Virus record (IMG/VR): IMGVR_UViG_648276659_000002
Coordinates: 1 to 11,556 of that record
DNA from: a virus
Taxonomy: Duplodnaviria > Heunggongvirae > Uroviricota > Caudoviricetes
Length of the DNA: 11,556 nucleotides
Strand: one strand, 5' to 3'
The stretch's first letter is position 1, and each line of letters begins with the position of its first letter. The notes under the pieces were generated by a model. It saw nothing but the letters and a program-made list of their open reading frames with translations. It had not been told where the DNA came from and made no database searches. The position numbers and the translations under genes are program-made. This document shows, piece after piece, positions 36 through 7,372 of this stretch.

Positions 36-1034
36 TTATGTTATCTCTTTGACATAAAGTATTATCGCGGACTTTATTTCACCATCTAGTTCTTTTGCGT
101 TGATTGACAAATGAACTGGTTTTCTATCCCACTCAGCTTGCTGAAGAGCTTTTTTATGCTCGGATGCGTCGAGAAAAACATCTTGTACTATGCACGATAT
201 TCTTAGATCGGAGTCAACATTTCTCACTTGCACTTTGAAGCTCTCTGGATCAGTGGAGTCAACCTTTTCAATGCGATAATTTCCATCAAGGCGGATCTCC
301 ATTGATTTCCGCCTTGCATTTGTAGTGAGGGTTTTGGATAGATCTGCATCCAATACAACGCCATCAATCTGAGCTGTATCAGCCTTGACAAATGATTTAA
401 CTATGTCGGTTTTTGCGTCATGAGCAAGTCTTTCCATGTTGTCTAGCTTGGGTTTTTCGCTAATAATCTGAGTCAATAATTCACTTCGTTTTGTTTCCTG
501 CTCAGACATGAAGCGCATGGTCGCAAGGTGTTCACGCTCAGACTCGCTTTTTACTTCTGCCATGCGAATCTCTTTGCGGTCTTCTAGATATTTTTTGAAT
601 AGGACGACGCCGCCCCATATAAGAGCGACCCCTAAAACTGTAATAACGATCTCTTGAGGGCCCACTTTACTCACCGCAGTTTGTATAACCTCACCCATGA
701 ACCCATCCATATTAACTTCTATCAAGGACGAGCCATTCTCAACATTCACCTGAATTTCGATAGCTTCCTTCTCTTCTTTTGAAAGCTTTCTTGGGTCAGG
801 AACTCCGTACTTTAACAATGCATAAGCTCGGTTTATTTGGGCCTGCATTTCAACAAAACCCTTCATGACAGAAGGAGTCAAACTGCCATGAAATTTGTCA
901 CCAGTAAGACGGAAGGTTAAGTTAGGCCACCCTTCAAATGATATTCCATCAGGAAGATCTTGCCCAGCGATGTACATCTCAACAAAACGCAAAGCATCTT
1001 CTTCGGAATGAATAACCGCCGTGCTGATTTCCAA
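36..1034 (-). CDS. Hypothetical membrane-spanning protein in the rexAB-equivalent position (candidate superinfection-exclusion / abortive-infection factor)
   Basis: 332-codon ORF co-oriented with and 121 bp downstream of cI. The listed start is TTG at 1032-1034, preceded by AGAGG 7 nt upstream; an alternative ATG is at 975-977. One central hydrophobic helix (IVITVLGVALIWGGVVLF) is flanked by charged, coiled-coil-like stretches. GC is visibly lower than in neighbouring genes. No family recognised. Confidence 0.7.
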   Translation of the reverse strand: MEISTAVIHSEEDALRFVEMYIAGQDLPDGISFEGWPNLTFRLTGDKFHGSLTPSVMKGFVEMQAQINRAYALLKYGVPDPRKLSKEEKEAIEIQVNVENGSSLIEVNMDGFMGEVIQTAVSKVGPQEIVITVLGVALIWGGVVLFKKYLEDRKEIRMAEVKSESEREHLATMRFMSEQETKRSELLTQIISEKPKLDNMERLAHDAKTDIVKSFVKADTAQIDGVVLDADLSKTLTTNARRKSMEIRLDGNYRIEKVDSTDPESFKVQVRNVDSDLRISCIVQDVFLDASEHKKALQQAEWDRKPVHLSINAKELDGEIKSAIILYVKEIT

Positions 1035-1155: not shown

Positions 1156-1863
1156 TCACGAACTTTTCAGCCATTCCCTTGCCTCGATGTCATCCAGATG
1201 GCGAGACTGCTTCAGAATACCAGCAACATACTCCACCTTTGCTACTTGATGATAAGGCAACGTTATTGGCCTGTGGTCCTGGTTGATGCTTGTAAATTGG
1301 TATTCTCCATCTCTGTCATAGCCAAGAACCTTAATCATGTTGTGTCCTTCAACGGTTCTGACAAACACCTCATCACCCGGGAATACTTTGGTGTTAGGCT
1401 CAATGAGTACATATTCTCCTGATTTTATTCTGGGCCACATGCTGTCTCCTTTCACACGAAGACCAAAGGCATCTGGATCATCGCTATAAATCTTGAGCCA
1501 CCCATCGCGCTCTTCGGTCATCTCGATGGCACCATCAACACCAAGAATTGCCTCACCAACCACGCGCACTAACCCTTTTTTTAATTTGCCAACAAATGAA
1601 AGAGTATCTTCATCATTCGCTCCATTTAACGAAGTGCCGTGCTGAAGCCACACAACATCAACGTTTAGAAATTTCGCAAGCGCATTCATTTTTTCCTGAC
1701 GTGGTAAAGACTCAGCATTAAACCATTTGCTAACGCCTTTGGACGAAAGAGAAAGGGCGCGGGCTATGGCCATTCCCCTACCATGTTCATCAAGACCAGC
1801 TTCTTTACAGGCTTGCGCTAGCCGCTGGGCGAATTCTTTGCGCACTTTTTCATTCTGAACCAT
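1156..1863 (-). CDS. cI: CI-type prophage repressor (N-terminal HTH, C-terminal S24 LexA-like autopeptidase domain)
   Basis: 235 aa. HTH-like segment (GMAIARALSLSSKGVSKW) and C-terminal GDSMWP...K motif typical of the S24 Ser-Lys dyad. Divergent from cro across an operator region. ATG at 1861-1863. Confidence 0.9.
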   Translation of the reverse strand: MVQNEKVRKEFAQRLAQACKEAGLDEHGRGMAIARALSLSSKGVSKWFNAESLPRQEKMNALAKFLNVDVVWLQHGTSLNGANDEDTLSFVGKLKKGLVRVVGEAILGVDGAIEMTEERDGWLKIYSDDPDAFGLRVKGDSMWPRIKSGEYVLIEPNTKVFPGDEVFVRTVEGHNMIKVLGYDRDGEYQFTSINQDHRPITLPYHQVAKVEYVAGILKQSRHLDDIEAREWLKSS

Positions 1864-2635: not shown

Positions 2636-2782
2636 ATGACAAAACAACTCAGTCCTTACCAGGACAAAATTCACAAACACATACTACGTGATCGCTTCCT
2701 GTCCAGCTTCAAGCAGCCTGGTCGATTCCGGGCTGAGTTGGAAAAAGTGAAGCTGATGCAGAAGGAGAAAGGTCATGAGTAA
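2636..2782 (+). CDS. Small hypothetical protein (48 aa) between cII and O
   Basis: ATG 2636 preceded by AGGAG with a 5-nt spacer. Its last codons overlap the start of O by 8 nt. Below the size cut-off of the supplied ORF track. Confidence 0.35.
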
Positions 2783-3635
2783 TCTTGCAACCGTAACACA
2801 TTTAAGGCCTTCACAACGGCCTGTGGAGCGTCGTGTGGCAGAAGTTGAAGATGGTTATACCCGTCTTGCAAATGCCCTGTATGAAGAGCTTATCGGCGCA
2901 GATTTAACAAAAAATCAGAGTAAGGTTGCCCACGCCATATGCCGTAAAACATACGGATACGGTAAAAAGATGGATCGCATCTCTGATAGTCAGTTAGCTC
3001 AAATTACCAGGCTGCCAAGACAGAAGGTAAACAAGGCCAAGAATGAGCTTATCGCGATGAAGGTAATCCTTCGCGAAGGCCAGCAAATCGGGCCTAACAA
3101 GAACATCGAGGAATGGCAAATCGAAGGGTGTCACTACTCTGGTGATAATGTCACTGCATTGGTGACAAAAAGTGTCACCAAAACGGTGACAGCGCTGTCA
3201 CCAAAACAGGGACACACAAAAGAAACTATTACAAAAGAAAAAAGAAATAATAAAAACACTATGTCCGAAAGTGTTCGGACGGAGTGTGAAAAAACTCCTG
3301 ACCGTCACGAAGAAACCGACAAGGCATTCGAGGAAATATTCTGGTGTGCAGGCATGCGGAAAGCCGGGAAGAAAAACGCAGCTTCAGCATTCAGAACACA
3401 GTTCAGGGAATGGCGTAAAACTACCAGGGGGACGGCAAGCGAGTTTGCCACGATGCTGGCAGAAGACATCGCATGCAGGAATGGTAAGCAGTTCGGATTC
3501 GACAGGTTGTTACCATCGAGCTACTTGAACGGTCAGCGCTGGAACGACGAAAAGCCAGAAACCATTCAACCACAATCCAAACCATCATCCGCAATCACCG
3601 TATCGAAAACTGGCTACGTGTTTTTCGACAGGTGA
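2775..3635 (+). CDS. O: Replication initiator protein O (iteron-binding)
   Basis: 286 aa. N-terminal domain matches lambda O as recalled (DDGY.RL...GADLTK.Q.KV...RKTYG..K.MDRI.DSQL..IT.LP). Strong RBS AAGGAGAAAGG. Origin iterons lie inside the gene. Confidence 0.9.
3128..3262. repeat. Replication origin: four about 20-bp iterons plus an AT-rich tract inside the O gene
   Basis: Iterons begin near 3128, 3149, 3172 and 3195, each TGTCAC(C)-N5/6-GGTGA(C/T)A, with the fourth arm degenerate. They are followed by an A-rich tract at 3219-3262, the lambda ori arrangement. Confidence 0.7.
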
Positions 3636-3638
3636 ACC

Positions 3639-3746
3639 ATGAAATCAAAAATCAAATCGCTACTGGTCGCTGGTTATAACCACGGCTGGTTAAGTATTTC
3701 GTTTGTCGATTTCTGGTTTAAAAATCTCAATCTGAGGGAATCATGA
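3639..3746 (+). CDS. Small hypothetical ORF (35 aa) coupled to the primase-helicase gene
   Basis: ATG 3639 preceded by AGGTG. Its stop overlaps the downstream start as ATGA at 3743-3746. Not in the ORF track because of size. Confidence 0.25.
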   Translation: MKSKIKSLLVAGYNHGWLSISFVDFWFKNLNLRES

Positions 3747-5623
3747 GGCCAAGTGAACTTAGCGACCTGCTTTGGGCGCAGGTTGACAGGGTGGCTCCGC
3801 ACCTGTTGCCAAATGGCAAGAAAGAGGGGCATGAGTGGGTTGCCGGTAACGTCAACGGTGACAAGGGAAACAGCCTTAAGGTCAACCTTAGCGGCAAGAA
3901 AAAATGGGCTGATTTCGCTGAGGGAGACGGCGGTGACATGCTTGATTTGTGGATGGCATGTCGTGGAATTAACCTGCATCAGGCTATGCAGGAAGCGAAA
4001 GCATTTCTCGGTATCAAGGATGACGATCACCATTTCGATGCCAGACGTGAGAAGAAATTCTCCAGACCTGATCGCAAGAAAATCGCCCGCTACGTTACCA
4101 GAACAGAATCCCATCTTGAGTACCTGCAATCGCGTGGCATATCGCCAGAAATCGTAAAGCGCTACGAGGTTGTCAGCGGCAAGGTGTGGAATGGAGAGCG
4201 GGAACTAGATGCTCTGGTGATTCCGTACAAACGCGATGGTGAGTTGTTGCAGGTCAAGCGAATCAGCACTGAGCGCCCGGACGGGAAGAAAGTCATTATG
4301 GCAGAAGGTGATTGCGAACCTTGCCTGTTCGGATGGCAGGCTCTGGACGCTGGCGTGAGGGCGGTTGTGCTTTGCGAAGGCGAAATTGATTGTATGAGCT
4401 ATGCGCAATACGGCATCTCGGCGTTATCCGTGCCGTTTGGTGGCGGGAAAGGCGCTAAGCAACAGTGGATTGAGTTTGAGTATCACAACCTCGACAGGTT
4501 TGAGGAAATATTCATCTCGATGGACGTTGATGATGTTGGTCGTGAAGCCGCAAGGGAAATCGCAAGCCGACTCGGTGAACATCGTTGCCGTCTTGTTACT
4601 CTGCCGTACAAAGACATCAACGAATGCCTGATGAACGGTGTTACCGAGGATGAAATCTGGCAGTACATCGGCACGGCATCCTACTTCGATCCTGAAGAAC
4701 TCTACAGCGCGCGAGAGTTTTACCAGGACACTATCAACGCTTTCTACGGCAAGCAGCAATATCTGTTTAATCCACCGTGGGAATCTCTGGCAGATAAATT
4801 CCAGTTCCGTGAGGCAGAGTTGACGCTGGTCAATGGTGTGAACGGTCACGGAAAAACGGAGGTTGTCGGGCATATGGCACTTGAGGCAATGCGTCAGGGT
4901 GTGAAGACGTGCATCGCGTCACTTGAGCTGAAGCCTGGTATTCTCCTTAAGCGCCTTACCCGTCAGGCGACGTGCTGCAAGATGCCGCCAGTGCTGGAAA
5001 TTGACTCTGCATTTAAATTTTATGACGAAAGACTTTGGGTGTTTGGCCTGACCGGAACGGCGAAAGCCGACAGGCTGATCGAAATATTCGACTACGCTCG
5101 CCGCCGATACGGGATCCAGTTATTCATCATCGACAGCCTGATGAAATGTGGCATAGGCGACGATGACTATAACGGGCAGAAGGCGTTTGTTGACTCGATT
5201 TGCGACTTCAAAAACAAAACAAACTCCCACGTCATTCTCGTTACTCACTCGCGAAAAGGAGACAGCGAAGAAAAACCAACCGGGAAAATGGACGTAAAAG
5301 GCTCTGGAGCGATAACAGACCTGACAGACAACCTTTTCATCATCTGGCGTAACAAGGCTCGCGAGAGAGCGTTACAGAGAGTTCAGAGTGGTGAAAAGAT
5401 GTCAGAGAAGGACGAACAGCTACTGGCGTCTCCTGCATCTGTTTTGATGCTTGAAAAACAACGTAACGGCGAAGGTTGGGAAGGTGGTGTCCCGTTGTTC
5501 CTTGACGAGCAATCGCACCAGTTCCTGCAACTTGAATCAGGATCGCCATATAGCTACATCGCCAATATGCCGAAATCGGAATATGACGAGGCGTGGCGAC
5601 AGGAAAACGTGACGGAGTATTAA
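3743..5623 (+). CDS. Bifunctional DNA primase / replicative helicase (zinc-binding N-terminus, TOPRIM, SF4 DnaB-like ATPase)
   Basis: 626 aa. N-terminal W.DFA.G.GGD..DL motif, TOPRIM-like acidic motifs (LCEGEIDC, SMDVDDVG), then Walker A GVNGHGKTE and Walker B-like FIIDSLM. RBS GAGGG. Confidence 0.88.
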   Translation: MRPSELSDLLWAQVDRVAPHLLPNGKKEGHEWVAGNVNGDKGNSLKVNLSGKKKWADFAEGDGGDMLDLWMACRGINLHQAMQEAKAFLGIKDDDHHFDARREKKFSRPDRKKIARYVTRTESHLEYLQSRGISPEIVKRYEVVSGKVWNGERELDALVIPYKRDGELLQVKRISTERPDGKKVIMAEGDCEPCLFGWQALDAGVRAVVLCEGEIDCMSYAQYGISALSVPFGGGKGAKQQWIEFEYHNLDRFEEIFISMDVDDVGREAAREIASRLGEHRCRLVTLPYKDINECLMNGVTEDEIWQYIGTASYFDPEELYSAREFYQDTINAFYGKQQYLFNPPWESLADKFQFREAELTLVNGVNGHGKTEVVGHMALEAMRQGVKTCIASLELKPGILLKRLTRQATCCKMPPVLEIDSAFKFYDERLWVFGLTGTAKADRLIEIFDYARRRYGIQLFIIDSLMKCGIGDDDYNGQKAFVDSICDFKNKTNSHVILVTHSRKGDSEEKPTGKMDVKGSGAITDLTDNLFIIWRNKARERALQRVQSGEKMSEKDEQLLASPASVLMLEKQRNGEGWEGGVPLFLDEQSHQFLQLESGSPYSYIANMPKSEYDEAWRQENVTEY

Positions 5624-5791
5624 ATGACCATCTACATCACTGAGCTAATAGCAGGGTTATCGTTACTAATGGTTCTTACTGTATATATTATTAAGTATAT
5701 TCTTTATGCGAATAAAAAAAACCAATTGATCACGATGAGCTTCTGTCAACATTATCATATGACTCAGAAACAGGAATATTTAAATGGCTAA
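5624..5791 (+). CDS. Possible small membrane peptide (55 aa); competes with the HNH N-terminal region
   Basis: ATG 5624 immediately after the helicase stop, with GGAG 6 nt upstream. Encodes one hydrophobic helix (IYITELIAGLSLLMVLTVYIIKYILY). Overlaps the frameshifted HNH reading frame in AT-rich DNA, so it may be spurious. Confidence 0.25.
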   Translation: MTIYITELIAGLSLLMVLTVYIIKYILYANKKNQLITMSFCQHYHMTQKQEYLNG

Positions 5792-6318
5792 AAACAAATT
5801 CAGTAGTAAGAGTAAAAGGTAGTATTGCTGGAGGTGTTAGTGGTGGTTATATATGCATTAGCATAAATAATGTTTTGTATTATGCGCATAGGCTTGCTTG
5901 GTTCTATGTATACAAAAAATGGCCTCCTAAGTTTATTGATCATGTAAATGGGAACAGACTTGACAATAGGATTTCAAATCTAAGACTGGCAACAGAGGAG
6001 CAGAATGCAAGAAACATTGTAGGTAATAGGTTAAACACATCCGGTGCGATTGGAGTGTCTTGGGATAAGACAACTGGCAGGTGGAAGTCTTATGTTGGTT
6101 ATAAAAATAAGACAATATCGTTAGGGTATTTCGATAGCAAAGAAGATGCAGCATTCATAGCAGCACTAGCAAGAAAGAAACTATATGGAACTTATGCGAG
6201 TAAAGCACTTAATTGCGAGCATGAGCTTTTATCTCAATTTAATAATGATGAGGATAAACTTGCGGAATATCTTAAGGAAAAATCTAAAAGGACTCGAAAG
6301 CGTGTTAAAAAAAGATAA
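5706..6318 (+). pseudogene. HNH-AP2 endonuclease, copy 1, disrupted by a frameshift in an A8 homopolymer
   Basis: The track ORF (5875-6318) starts at TTG and lacks the N-terminal region. The same frame is open back to 5716 and encodes the conserved N-terminal part (YDSETGIFKW...GGYICI). ATG 5706 is one base out of frame across the A8 run at 5714-5721; A7 would restore a full-length protein of about 200 aa. Motifs HRLAW...DH.NG...N...NLR are followed by an AP2-like segment. Confidence 0.55.
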
Positions 6319-6350
6319 AGGCCTGCTGGTAATCGCAGGCCTTTTTATTT
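6319..6350 (+). terminator. Rho-independent terminator after HNH copy 1
   Basis: AGGCCTGC (6319-6326) pairs with GCAGGCCT (6335-6342) around an 8-nt loop, followed by TTTTTATTT. Confidence 0.7.
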
Positions 6351-6365
6351 GGGGGAGAGTAAATC

Positions 6366-6572
6366 GTGGCTGAGTTTATGCTCGTCGCACTCAAATGCGT
6401 TGGCGTTGGATGGATTCTTCTGACGTTTTTTATTGTTCTGCATAGCTACATTCGTCTTGTGAATGACGGTAAAGACCCATGGTATACGTTGTTTGGCGCT
6501 GCATTTGTCTGGGTGATTATCGGTGTTATGCCTGTCGCTGTAGCAAAAATGGCGTGGCGTTTTGTTAGTTGA
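6366..6572 (+). CDS. Small hypothetical membrane protein (two predicted TM helices)
   Basis: 68 aa, GTG start preceded by GGGGGAGAG. Two hydrophobic stretches. Sits just upstream of ninB. Confidence 0.45.
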   Translation: MAEFMLVALKCVGVGWILLTFFIVLHSYIRLVNDGKDPWYTLFGAAFVWVIIGVMPVAVAKMAWRFVS

Positions 6573-7026: not shown

Positions 7027-7205
7027 GGCGACAGCGACGAAGTTTCACCGACATAATCTGTGAAAACTGCAATTACCTTCCAACGAAACGTTCCAGAAAT
7101 AAACCCAGGCCAATCCCAAAAGAATCTGACGTTAAAACCTTCAATTACACGGCTCACCTGTGGGATATCCGGTGGCTAAGACATCGTGCGAGGAAAACAA
7201 GGTGA
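7023..7205 (+). CDS. ninE: NinE
   Basis: 60 aa starting MRRQRRS, matching the lambda NinE pattern as recalled. ATG overlaps the ninB stop (ATGA); RBS AGGGAGGG. Confidence 0.78.
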
Positions 7206-7372
7206 TTGACCAAAATCGAAGTTACGAACAAGAAAGCGTCGAGCGAGCTTTAACGTGCGCTAACTGCGGTCAGAAGCTGCATGTGCTGGAAGTTCACGTG
7301 TGTGAGCTCTGCTGTGCAGAACTGATGAGCGATCCGAATAGCTCAATGTACGAGGAAGAAGACGATGGCTAA
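7202..7372 (+). CDS. ninF: NinF (CxxC zinc-ribbon-like)
   Basis: GTG 7202 overlaps the ninE stop (GTGA) with AGGAAA upstream. Product [27 protein letters not shown]... matches lambda NinF as recalled. Confidence 0.78.

What the first reader, a model, noticed from the sequence alone, without database searches (positions are those of the whole stretch)
3639..5623. Replication module pairs an O-type initiator with a fused primase-helicase instead of a P-type helicase loader
Lambda O recruits host DnaB through P. Here the gene after O encodes a 626-aa zinc-binding / TOPRIM primase fused to an SF4 helicase, implying replication that does not depend on host DnaB and DnaG. A 35-aa ORF is coupled to its start by an ATGA overlap.
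Basis: partly seen in the sequence, partly recalled or inferred. Interest (0 to 1): 0.4.

Follow-up and report, generated by a model that had tools for sequence, protein, structure and literature searches.

The report
Lambdoid O initiator plus T7-like primase-helicase
This E. coli prophage replaces lambda's P helicase loader with its own T7 gene-4-like primase-helicase next to an O-type origin-binding protein; the arrangement is real but has been annotated in phages ES18, epsilon34, mEp043 and Stx phage 24B for years, and nobody has tested it experimentally.

Summary
ORF 3743-5623 (626 aa) is a T7 gp4/Twinkle-type primase-helicase. It follows a lambda-O-type initiator (2775-3635) that carries four iterons and an A-rich tract inside its own gene. 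A 35-codon ORF (3639-3746) ends in an ATGA overlap with the primase-helicase start.

"Zinc-binding" is not supported. The N-terminal domain is homologous to the DnaG zinc-binding domain, but all four zinc ligands are replaced, here and across the family.

The module is already known. It is 98.5% identical to the one in viable phage mEp043. It is annotated in ES18 as "putative primase/helicase; similar to T7 gene 4", and published as O2/P2 of Stx phage 24B and as replication type Eru5. Independence from host DnaB and DnaG is a sound inference: all catalytic residues are conserved, and no P, DnaC or DnaB gene is annotated in this prophage stretch or in the mEp043 genome. It has never been tested.

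I add three points:
- The primase-helicase travels as a cassette with the 35-aa gene, which is under purifying selection.
- The cassette includes a conserved initiator C-terminal tail ([13 protein letters not shown]).
- The tail persists on initiators with unrelated N- and C-domains, so it is a candidate docking peptide.

Interest is low to moderate.

The parts
2775..3635 (+). O-type replication initiator, 286 aa: winged-helix origin-binding N-domain, disordered linker, helical C-domain and conserved tail
   Evidence: Phage_rep_O 1.1e-37; TIGR01610 1.7e-30; 49% identity to lambda O residues 1-157 and no similarity beyond that. AlphaFold model: wHTH at aa 21-107, disordered aa 119-175, helices aa 179-252.
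3129..3214 (.). Origin iterons: four 19-bp copies of TGTCAC-N7-GGTGACA, each an internal palindrome (3129, 3149, 3173, 3196)
   Evidence: the repeat finder families D1/D2 and inverted repeats I1-I5. Same position as the lambda ori iterons inside gene O. The ES18 record annotates the homologous site as 'similar to lambda ori'.
3216..3287 (.). A-rich tract (3216-3255), the likely unwinding element, followed by an inverted repeat (3256-3269 / 3274-3287)
   Evidence: Sequence read directly; repeats D3 and I6. The layout matches lambda ori: iterons, AT-rich region, palindrome (my own knowledge).
3309..3530 (+). Initiator C-terminal helical domain (aa 179-252; motifs [15 protein letters not shown] and [18 protein letters not shown]). 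It is not homologous to the lambda O C-domain.
   Evidence: PHROG 33384, 7.6e-88; no Pfam hit at E<=10; hhalign against the lambda O C-terminus gives probability 0.2%; pLDDT 82-91; conserved in 22 loci.
3594..3632 (+). Initiator C-terminal tail [13 protein letters not shown], a candidate docking peptide for the primase-helicase or the 35-aa protein
   Evidence: The tail is conserved on initiators with three different C-domain types upstream of this primase-helicase. Over 10 codons in 21 loci, pS is 0.74 and pN 0.21. It is absent from Vibrio-phage homologues of the C-domain that are followed by a P-like loader.
3639..3746 (+). Conserved 35-aa micro-gene (MKSKIKSLLVAGYNHGWLSISFVDFWFKNLNLRES). 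It starts 3 nt after the O stop codon, and its own stop overlaps the primase-helicase start (ATGA).
   Evidence: PHROG 21848, 4.4e-26. It is open with exactly 35 codons from a conserved ATG in 23 of 23 diverse loci, and its stop overlaps or lies just upstream of the primase-helicase start. Mean pS is 0.69 and pN 0.24; dN/dS is mostly 0.1-0.3, up to 0.58. The alternative frames mostly contain stops. It is annotated as ES18 gp60 and in phage LMessi, but not by PGAP in the E. coli genome.
3743..5623 (+). T7 gp4/Twinkle-type bifunctional primase-helicase, 626 aa
   Evidence: PHROG 239, 2e-171; PDB hits T7 gp4 2.7e-23 and Twinkle 6.5e-14; Foldseek hits Twinkle 1.3e-22, T7 gp4 4.9e-22 and Aquifex DnaG 2.3e-12.
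3809..4012 (+). Cysteine-less homologue of the DnaG/gp4 zinc-binding domain (aa 23-90)
   Evidence: TIGR01391 dnaG model positions 27-155, 2e-9. DnaG ligands C40/H43/C61/C64 align to G35/N38/D57/E60. The family consensus has no Cys/His at those positions, yet the motif is strongly conserved. Modelled as a small beta sheet plus helices, with 10-residue block mean pLDDT 80-87.
4367..4630 (+). TOPRIM fold of the primase catalytic domain (aa 209-296; E212/E214/D216, D261/D263, D291)
   Evidence: Toprim_2, 3.1e-12. T7 residues E157/D207/D209/D237 and K122/K128 are conserved in the window protein. The acidic residues are kept in at least 125 of 127 representatives, K122 in 116 and K128 in 96.
4805..5524 (+). 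SF4 (DnaB/gp4-type) RecA-fold helicase domain (aa 355-594): Walker A G365-T372, E395, Walker B D464, H502, R536, Arg finger R574
   Evidence: AAA_25 2.1e-6 and DnaB_C 3.3e-5. All T7 gp4 helicase catalytic positions are conserved, in 120-127 of 127 representatives.

Best explanation
This is the replication module of a lambdoid prophage of the ES18 / mEp043 / 'Eru5' type.

Proposed mechanism:
1. After derepression, rightward transcription expresses the initiator, the 35-aa protein and the primase-helicase as a tightly coupled unit. The gaps are 3 nt and an ATGA overlap.
2. The winged-helix N-domain of the O-like initiator binds the four iterons inside its own gene and destabilises the adjacent A-rich tract, as lambda O does.
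3. Lambda O recruits a P-DnaB complex at this point. This initiator instead recruits the phage's own hexameric SF4 helicase, which is fused to a DnaG-type primase. Recruitment most likely goes through the initiator's C-terminal domain and/or its conserved terminal peptide [13 protein letters not shown], possibly with help from the 35-aa protein.
4. The enzyme then unwinds DNA 5'-3' and lays down RNA primers. It thereby substitutes for host DnaB, its loader DnaC, and DnaG.
5. Elongation uses host DNA polymerase III, because the phage encodes no polymerase.

Shown here: gene order and coupling; domain homologies; conservation of every catalytic residue; the origin anatomy; absence of annotated P, DnaC or DnaB genes; and co-inheritance and purifying selection of the tail, micro-gene and primase-helicase cassette.

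Inferred: every biochemical activity, the recruitment contacts, independence from host DnaB and DnaG, and coupling to Pol III.
For: - Domain and fold homology to T7 gp4 and Twinkle covers both halves of the protein.
- All primase and helicase catalytic residues are conserved in the window protein and in 96-127 of 127 family representatives, depending on the position.
- The initiator has an O-type N-domain, and four iterons, an A-rich tract and a palindrome lie inside the gene.
- No P, DnaC or DnaB homologue is annotated in the surrounding 20.8 kb of prophage.
- None is annotated in the whole genome of mEp043, a phage that grows on E. coli K-12 and carries a 98.5% identical module.
- The same module is the only annotated replication region in the early-right regions I examined of ES18 and 24B, and it is present in epsilon34 and Sf101.
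- The primase-helicase sits behind at least five different origin-binding N-domain types, and the junction-proximal initiator tail and the 35-aa gene stay with it.
- Purifying selection acts on the tail (pS 0.74, pN 0.21) and on the micro-gene (pS 0.69, pN 0.24).
- P22 and phage L provide precedent. There an O-like initiator works with a phage DnaB-type helicase, and the two genes can only be exchanged as a pair (PMC8022706).
Against: - No experiment exists for any member of this module (PMC8951638 says so for the Stx version).
- The zinc-binding domain has lost all four zinc ligands. In T7 gp4 that domain is required for template-directed primer synthesis, and animal Twinkle proteins with a degenerate domain lack primase activity (my own knowledge). 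Primase function is therefore less certain than helicase function.
- The helicase half of the AlphaFold model has low confidence (pLDDT 31-83).
- How a phage helicase would couple to host Pol III is unknown.
- The 35-aa gene is missing in some Xenorhabdus and Providencia loci, so it cannot be universally essential.
- The tail is not found on the initiator of Pseudomonas phage AF, whose primase-helicase is 41% identical.
- A more distant homologue of the initiator C-domain occurs with P-like loaders in Vibrio phages, so that domain is not specific for this helicase.
Confidence: 0.75

Rival explanations
1. Helicase only. The protein replaces DnaB, but its primase half is catalytically silent or acts only as a structural or recruiting domain, as in animal Twinkle. 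Priming would then still depend on host DnaG.
For: All four zinc ligands of the zinc-binding domain are replaced. Twinkle is the top structural match. P22 gp12 helicase works with host DnaG (Wickner 1984, cited in PMC8022706), which shows that a lambdoid phage helicase can use DnaG.
Against: The TOPRIM acidic residues and the two primase lysines are conserved in the window protein. The acidic residues are kept in at least 125 of 127 representatives at 35-62% identity, and the lysines in 116 and 96. The Cys-less domain itself is strongly conserved in sequence. That pattern is not expected for a decaying domain.
Confidence: 0.2
2. The 35-codon ORF is only a translational-coupling device that passes ribosomes from O to the primase-helicase gene. 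Its peptide would have no function of its own.
For: It starts 3 nt after the O stop codon, and its own stop overlaps or lies just upstream of the primase-helicase start in the 23 loci that have it. It is absent in some lineages where the initiator gene ends 10-21 nt before the primase-helicase gene.
Against: The amino-acid sequence is conserved. The length is a constant 35 codons, the motif is MK..IK.LLIAGYNHG(L/W)LS..FV..WF..L.LR, and pN is 0.24 against pS 0.69. It is recognisable at 52% identity in phages LMessi and Fraca.
Confidence: 0.25
3. The TOPRIM-ATPase protein is not a replication enzyme but a prophage-encoded defence or exclusion nuclease of the OLD, Gabija or PARIS kind.
For: TOPRIM plus a P-loop ATPase is also the domain content of several defence nucleases (my own knowledge). 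There are weak PADLOC hits to a DnaG-like domain of a DRT system (6e-11) and to mad8 (7.5e-5).
Against: The domain order and full-length homology match T7 gp4 and Twinkle. The PADLOC hits cover single domains only. The gene sits immediately after the origin-bearing initiator in the early-right operon, and no other replication genes are annotated in the mEp043 genome.
Confidence: 0.02

Closest known systems
Replication module of Salmonella phage ES18 (gp59 O-like, gp60, gp61 'putative primase/helicase; similar to phage T7 gene 4'). Also in epsilon34 (genes 50-52), mEp043, Sf101, SEN22 and Anderson typing phages STMP5/17.
   Same: The three-gene order is the same and the origin lies inside the initiator gene. 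DNA identity is 88% to ES18 from the initiator C-domain onward, and 98.5% to mEp043 over the whole module. At the protein level ES18 is 95% (C-domain), 97% (35-aa) and 94% (primase-helicase) identical. The literature describes it as an O relative plus a primase-helicase in place of a DnaB-like helicase (PMC10307801, PMC2629481).
   Different: The origin-binding N-domain here is only 49% identical to the ES18/lambda type, so the iteron specificity is probably different. Otherwise this is a member of the same module type.
Stx-phage replication type 'O2/P2' (phage 24B, Min27), also called 'Eru5' (Stx2a_F403)
   Same: The initiator C-domain (97%), the 35-aa ORF (71%) and the primase-helicase (about 98% outside the insertion) are shared. 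TOPRIM and gp4-type helicase domains were already reported for 24B 'P' (PMC3430580).
   Different: The Stx version has an HTH_36-type N-domain instead of Phage_rep_O. It also carries a Hint + LAGLIDADG intein inserted in the Walker A loop between K371 and T372 (PMC3430580). The window copy has no intein.
Bacteriophage T7 gene 4 primase-helicase, and mitochondrial Twinkle
   Same: The domain order is the same: zinc-binding-domain-like region, TOPRIM primase, linker, SF4 helicase. All catalytic residues are conserved. The C-terminal tail is acidic and ends in an aromatic residue (...ENVTEY here...DTDF in T7).
   Different: Identity is only about 22-26%. The zinc-binding domain has no zinc ligands, which resembles animal Twinkle rather than T7. 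The gene sits in a temperate phage with no DNA polymerase of its own, so it must work with host Pol III. It is recruited to a lambda-type origin by an initiator, whereas T7 initiates from transcription-primed origins.
Lambda O/P module
   Same: The initiator has an O-type N-domain. Four iterons, an AT-rich tract and a palindrome lie inside the initiator gene, at the same place in the early-right operon after cII.
   Different: There is no P gene. The initiator C-terminal half is unrelated to the lambda O C-terminal half that binds P. The next genes are the 35-aa ORF and a primase-helicase.
P22 gene 18 / gene 12 module (O-like initiator plus phage DnaB-type helicase)
   Same: The logic is the same: an origin-binding initiator paired with a phage-encoded SF4 helicase and no loader. 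The initiator and helicase are exchangeable only as a pair (PMC8022706).
   Different: P22 gp12 is a DnaB-type helicase without a primase and uses host DnaG. Here a primase is fused to the helicase. PMC10307801 calls the two helicases 'nonhomologous'.

Membership tests
T7 gp4-type bifunctional primase-helicase | N-terminal Cys4 zinc ribbon (zinc-binding domain) | tested here: not met
   The domain is homologous (TIGR01391, 2e-9), but the ligand positions are G35/N38/D57/E60. C73 is the only Cys in aa 1-190. The loss is family-wide.
T7 gp4-type bifunctional primase-helicase | DnaG-type RNA-polymerase/TOPRIM domain with conserved acidic metal ligands | tested here: met
   Toprim_2, 3.1e-12. E212/D261/D263/D291 and K172/K183 align to T7 E157/D207/D209/D237 and K122/K128.
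T7 gp4-type bifunctional primase-helicase | C-terminal SF4 RecA-fold helicase with Walker A/B, catalytic Glu, His sensor and Arg finger | tested here: met
   K371, E395, D464, H502, R536 and R574 align to T7 K318, E343, D424, H465, R504 and R522. AAA_25 is above its cut-off; DnaB_C scores 23.8 bits against a 27-bit cut-off.
T7 gp4-type bifunctional primase-helicase | Ring hexamer, 5'-3' unwinding and oligoribonucleotide synthesis | not testable with these tools
   These are biochemical properties. Only a monomer model was made.
Lambda O-type initiator | Phage_rep_O winged-helix N-domain | tested here: met
   PF04492 1.1e-37 and TIGR01610 1.7e-30. 49% identity to lambda O residues 1-157. The Foldseek hits fall on wHTH proteins.
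Lambda O-type initiator | Origin (iterons plus AT-rich tract) inside the initiator gene | tested here: met
   Four 19-bp iterons at 3129-3214, an A-rich tract at 3216-3255 and an inverted repeat at 3256-3287.
Lambda O-type initiator | C-terminal domain homologous to the P-binding half of lambda O | tested here: not met
   BLASTP finds no similarity beyond residue 157. hhalign of a 22-sequence C-domain profile against the lambda O C-terminus gives probability 0.2%.
Lambda P-type helicase loader | A P-like (or DnaC-like) gene next to the initiator | tested here: not met
   The ORFs after O are the 35-aa ORF (PHROG 21848; no P hit) and the primase-helicase. The RefSeq annotation of the 20.8 kb examined and the mEp043 genome annotation show none.
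ES18 / mEp043 / Eru5-type lambdoid replication module | Initiator C-domain of PHROG 33384 type, 35-aa ORF and primase-helicase of PHROG 239 type, in this order | tested here: met
   The module is 98.5% identical to mEp043 in DNA. ES18 proteins are 94-97% identical.
Anti-phage defence TOPRIM-ATPases (OLD, Gabija, PARIS) | Match to a defence-system protein model and partner genes | tested here: not met
   PADLOC gives only single-domain hits (DRT DnaG-like 6e-11; mad8 7.5e-5) and no partner genes.

The most novel reading that the evidence does not exclude
The primase-helicase may travel with its own portable recruitment kit. The kit would be a ~13-residue C-terminal peptide ([13 protein letters not shown]) that can be grafted onto unrelated origin-binding proteins, plus a 35-aa micro-protein that acts as adaptor or ring-loader. 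Together they would let a self-contained, zinc-independent primase-helicase plug into any lambdoid origin and take over host Pol III without DnaB, DnaC or DnaG. This would be a minimal, loader-free solution to helicase loading at a duplex origin, and a natural system for asking how a foreign helicase couples to Pol III.
Probability: 0.3. Interest if true: 0.55.

Novelty: already known. Interest (0 to 1): 0.25.

Why it matters
The finding as stated adds nothing to the record. The same module is annotated in GenBank (ES18, 2005) and discussed in several genome papers.

What remains open is mechanistic:
- No member of this very common module has been tested for host-factor independence. It occurs in 298 of 5,426 complete E. 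coli genomes, including Stx2a phages of O157:H7.
- It is not known how the ring helicase is loaded at the origin.
- It is not known how it couples to host Pol III.

Phage replication drives Shiga-toxin gene dosage (my own knowledge), and the module type varies among Stx phages (PMC8951638). Knowing which host factors the Eru5-type module needs therefore has some applied interest. The Cys-less zinc-binding domain combined with intact catalytic residues is a natural test of whether zinc is needed for DnaG-type priming.

Tried and rejected
1. Homology between this initiator's C-domain and the P-binding C-half of lambda O: none was found by BLASTP or by profile comparison (probability 0.2%).
2. 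Fold assignment of the initiator C-domain: the AlphaFold model is confident for aa 179-252. Foldseek against the PDB returned only winged-helix hits to the N-domain, at E about 0.1, so the C-domain fold stays unassigned.
3. Pfam search of primase-helicase residues 1-200 and of the initiator C-half at E<=10: nothing useful.
4. Defence-system reading: rejected.
5. The idea that the PHROG 33384 C-domain is the specific partner of the primase-helicase was weakened. More distant homologues (36-44% identity) in Vibrio phages PVA1 and D65 are followed by weak P-like loaders. Several primase-helicase loci have initiators with other C-domains. The terminal tail fits the co-occurrence pattern better.
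6. A homologue search with the C-domain alone returned mostly partial or frameshifted fragments and was not used for modelling.
7. From memory I first placed the T7 Arg finger in the DLRGSG motif, which would have made it a Lys here. The family alignment places R522 opposite R574, so it is conserved.
8. The ES18 genome paper (PMC545730) is not held. I relied on its GenBank annotation and on later papers that cite it.
9. A literature search found no replication experiments on mEp043, Sf101 or 24B.
Full report
**What is in the sequence**

The window is the immunity, replication and nin region of a lambdoid prophage. Positions 2775-5623 are 100% identical to the chromosome of E. coli MS 196-1, and related copies occur in 298 of 5,426 complete E. 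coli genomes.

Reading rightward from a LexA-type cI repressor (1156-1863, minus strand), the genes are:
- cro and cII;
- a DUF2740 gene;
- an O-type initiator (2775-3635);
- a 35-codon ORF (3639-3746);
- a 626-codon ORF (3743-5623).

The ATG of the long ORF (3743-3745) overlaps the TGA of the short one (3744-3746). The short ORF starts 3 nt after the initiator's stop codon.

**The initiator and the origin**

- The N-terminal 114 residues match Phage_rep_O (1.1e-37) and TIGR01610 (1.7e-30).
- Residues 1-157 are 49% identical to lambda O.
- Inside the gene lie four 19-bp iterons (TGTCAC-N7-GGTGACA; 3129-3214), a 40-bp A-rich tract (3216-3255) and an inverted repeat (3256-3287). This is the lambda ori layout, at the same place as the annotated lambda iterons.
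- Beyond residue 157 there is no similarity to lambda O by BLASTP or by profile comparison (probability 0.2%).
- An AlphaFold model shows a winged-helix N-domain, a disordered linker encoded by the iteron and A-rich DNA, a confident four-helix C-domain (aa 179-252) and a low-confidence tail. Foldseek could not assign a fold to the C-domain.

**The 626-aa protein**

- Pfam finds Toprim_2 (3.1e-12), AAA_25, and DnaB_C just under its cut-off. PHROG 239 'DNA primase/helicase' scores 2e-171.
- The best solved relatives by sequence are T7 gp4 (2.7e-23) and Twinkle (6.5e-14).
- By structure they are Twinkle (1.3e-22), T7 gp4 (4.9e-22) and Aquifex DnaG (2.3e-12).
- I aligned the protein with T7 gp4 and 127 family representatives at 35-62% identity. 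Every catalytic residue I checked is conserved:
  - TOPRIM E212/D261/D263/D291;
  - primase lysines K172/K183;
  - Walker A K371, catalytic E395, Walker B D464, sensor H502, R536 and Arg finger R574.
- The family is large, with 854 clusters at 50% identity scoring E<=1e-30.

The fused primase-helicase assignment is therefore solid.

**The zinc claim fails**

- Residues 26-143 match the DnaG model over its zinc-binding region (2e-9).
- The model folds this region as a small beta sheet plus helices at pLDDT of about 80-87.
- The only cysteine in residues 1-190 is C73.
- A family profile aligned to E. coli DnaG puts the ligands C40/H43/C61/C64 opposite G35/N38/D57/E60.
- Across 127 representatives these columns are G, D/S/N, D and T/S. 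The surrounding motif (GS..GE.G.SLKV...W.DFA.G..GDLLDLW) is strongly conserved.

This is a conserved, cysteine-less version of the zinc-binding domain, not a zinc-binding one.

**It is a known module**

- The same three genes are annotated in Salmonella phage ES18. gp59 is 'similar to lambda gpO' with a rep_origin 'similar to lambda ori'. gp60 is 'function unknown'. gp61 is 'putative primase/helicase; similar to phage T7 gene 4'.
- The module is 98.5% identical in mEp043, 98.3% in Sf101 and 91% in SEN22. From the initiator C-domain onward it is 88% identical in ES18 and epsilon34 and 97-98% in Stx2 phages 24B, Min27 and Stx2a_F403.
- Published descriptions:
[quoted passage not shown] - 24B 'O2/P2', with TOPRIM, gp4-type helicase and an intein (PMC3430580).
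  - Replication type Eru5 (PMC8951638).
- None of these papers reports an experiment on host-factor dependence. PMC8951638 says explicitly that nothing is known about replication proteins of Eru phages. Searches for work on mEp043, Sf101 and 24B found none.

**Does it replace P, DnaB and DnaG?**

- No P-, DnaC- or DnaB-like gene is annotated in the 20.8 kb of this prophage that I examined. None is annotated in the complete genome of mEp043, which is propagated on E. coli K-12 and encodes no polymerase.
- With intact helicase motifs, substitution for DnaB and its loader is the natural reading. P22 and phage L provide precedent: an O-like initiator works with a phage helicase, and the pair is exchangeable only together (PMC8022706).
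- Substitution for DnaG is plausible from the intact primase catalytic residues. It is less secure because of the ligand-less zinc-binding domain.
- All of this is inference. Temperature-sensitive host tests on mEp043 would settle it.

**What travels with the primase-helicase**

The BLAST matches to ES18, epsilon34 and the Stx phages begin at window position ~3200-3250, just after the origin. The initiator C-half, the 35-aa ORF and the primase-helicase are therefore inherited together while the origin-binding N-domain is swapped.

I examined about 30 loci from phages and from one genome per species. The primase-helicase (61-99% identical) sits behind at least five N-domain types:
- two Phage_rep_O specificities;
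- HTH_36;
- a DnaD-like PHROG 1701 type in phages LMessi and Fraca;
- others.

The 35-aa ORF:
- It is present with exactly 35 codons from a conserved ATG in 23 loci, and its stop overlaps or lies just upstream of the primase-helicase start.
- It evolves under purifying selection (pS 0.69, pN 0.24; dN/dS mostly 0.1-0.3). The alternative frames mostly contain stops.
- It is a real micro-gene that PGAP does not annotate.
- It is absent in some Xenorhabdus and Providencia loci.

The initiator C-domain and tail:
- The PHROG 33384 C-domain is not strictly tied to this helicase. More distant homologues in Vibrio phages precede weak P-like loaders. Several primase-helicase loci have initiators with other C-domains.
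- What does persist on those other initiators is the extreme C-terminal peptide: [38 protein letters not shown], with looser variants such as IQKYGNYYYIER.
- Over 10 codons in 21 loci it shows pS 0.74 against pN 0.21. The residues just upstream of it are variable.
- The Vibrio homologues lack it, and so does the initiator of Pseudomonas phage AF, whose primase-helicase is 41% identical.

I therefore propose the tail as the docking element for the primase-helicase, or for the micro-protein. This is an inference from co-occurrence and selection only.

**Verdict**

Its interpretation is reasonable but untested, and the arrangement is already described. I score interest low. The residual value lies in the untested mechanism and in three details I could not find in the papers I read: the family-wide Cys-less zinc-binding domain, the selected 35-aa micro-gene, and the conserved initiator tail.

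Noticed in passing
L003:3496-6402 (Stx2 phage 24B 'P'); also L031 and L033 (Shigella flexneri and E. coli chromosomes): The Stx-phage copy of the primase-helicase is 968 aa. A Hint + LAGLIDADG intein is inserted in the Walker A loop between K371 and T372. This was already reported for 24B (PMC3430580). The window copy has no intein.
   Followed up: yes
window 5624-6400: A low-GC stretch (0.34-0.39, against about 0.49 in the flanks) lies directly after the primase-helicase gene. It holds a 55-aa hydrophobic ORF and an HNH_3 + AP2 homing-endonuclease ORF (5875-6318). The endonuclease reading frame is open from 5716 but has no start codon before 5875. RefSeq calls part of it a pseudogene. mEp043 has NinB directly after the primase-helicase, so this looks like a decaying homing-endonuclease insertion.
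   Followed up: partly
window 5875-6318, 7365-7931, 10064-10576: Three separate HNH endonuclease genes lie within 11.5 kb of the early-right and nin region. The second coincides with another GC dip at 7201-8000.
   Followed up: no
window 36-1034 (-): A 332-aa ORF of unknown function (PHROG 6191, 1e-137; no Pfam hit above cut-off and no PADLOC hit) sits just left of the cI repressor. This is the position where lambda carries rexAB-type accessory genes (my own knowledge). It is a possible moron or defence candidate.
   Followed up: no
window 2636-2782 (+): The DUF2740 gene overlaps the initiator start by 8 nt. PHROG 1913 and RefSeq phage records label it 'tail protein' although it lies in the early-right operon between cII and O. 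This is probably a propagated misannotation.
   Followed up: no
window 5543-5620 (primase-helicase aa 601-626): The C-terminus ...MPKSEYDEAWRQENVTEY is acidic and ends in an aromatic residue, like the T7 gp4 tail (...DTDF) that binds T7 polymerase (my own knowledge). Y614, W618, N622 and V623 are conserved among close relatives, and some distant relatives also end in acidic-aromatic tails. It might contact a host replisome subunit.
   Followed up: partly
L035-L040 (Burkholderiales genomes): Helicase-only relatives (about 310-320 aa, no primase half, 30-41% identical to the helicase domain) occur in these loci. In three of the six (L036, L037, L040) the upstream replication protein carries the same '...YLN.GRW.(D/G).E' type of C-terminal motif but lacks the [10 protein letters not shown] tail.
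   Followed up: partly
L006:3096-4395 (Vibrio phage PVA1) and L007:3129-4365 (Vibrio phage D65): These initiators have a C-domain 36-44% identical to the one here. They are followed by small proteins with weak PHROG 109 'P-like helicase loader' matches (about 2-3e-4), not by a primase-helicase. The PVA1 ORF is not annotated in its record.
   Followed up: partly
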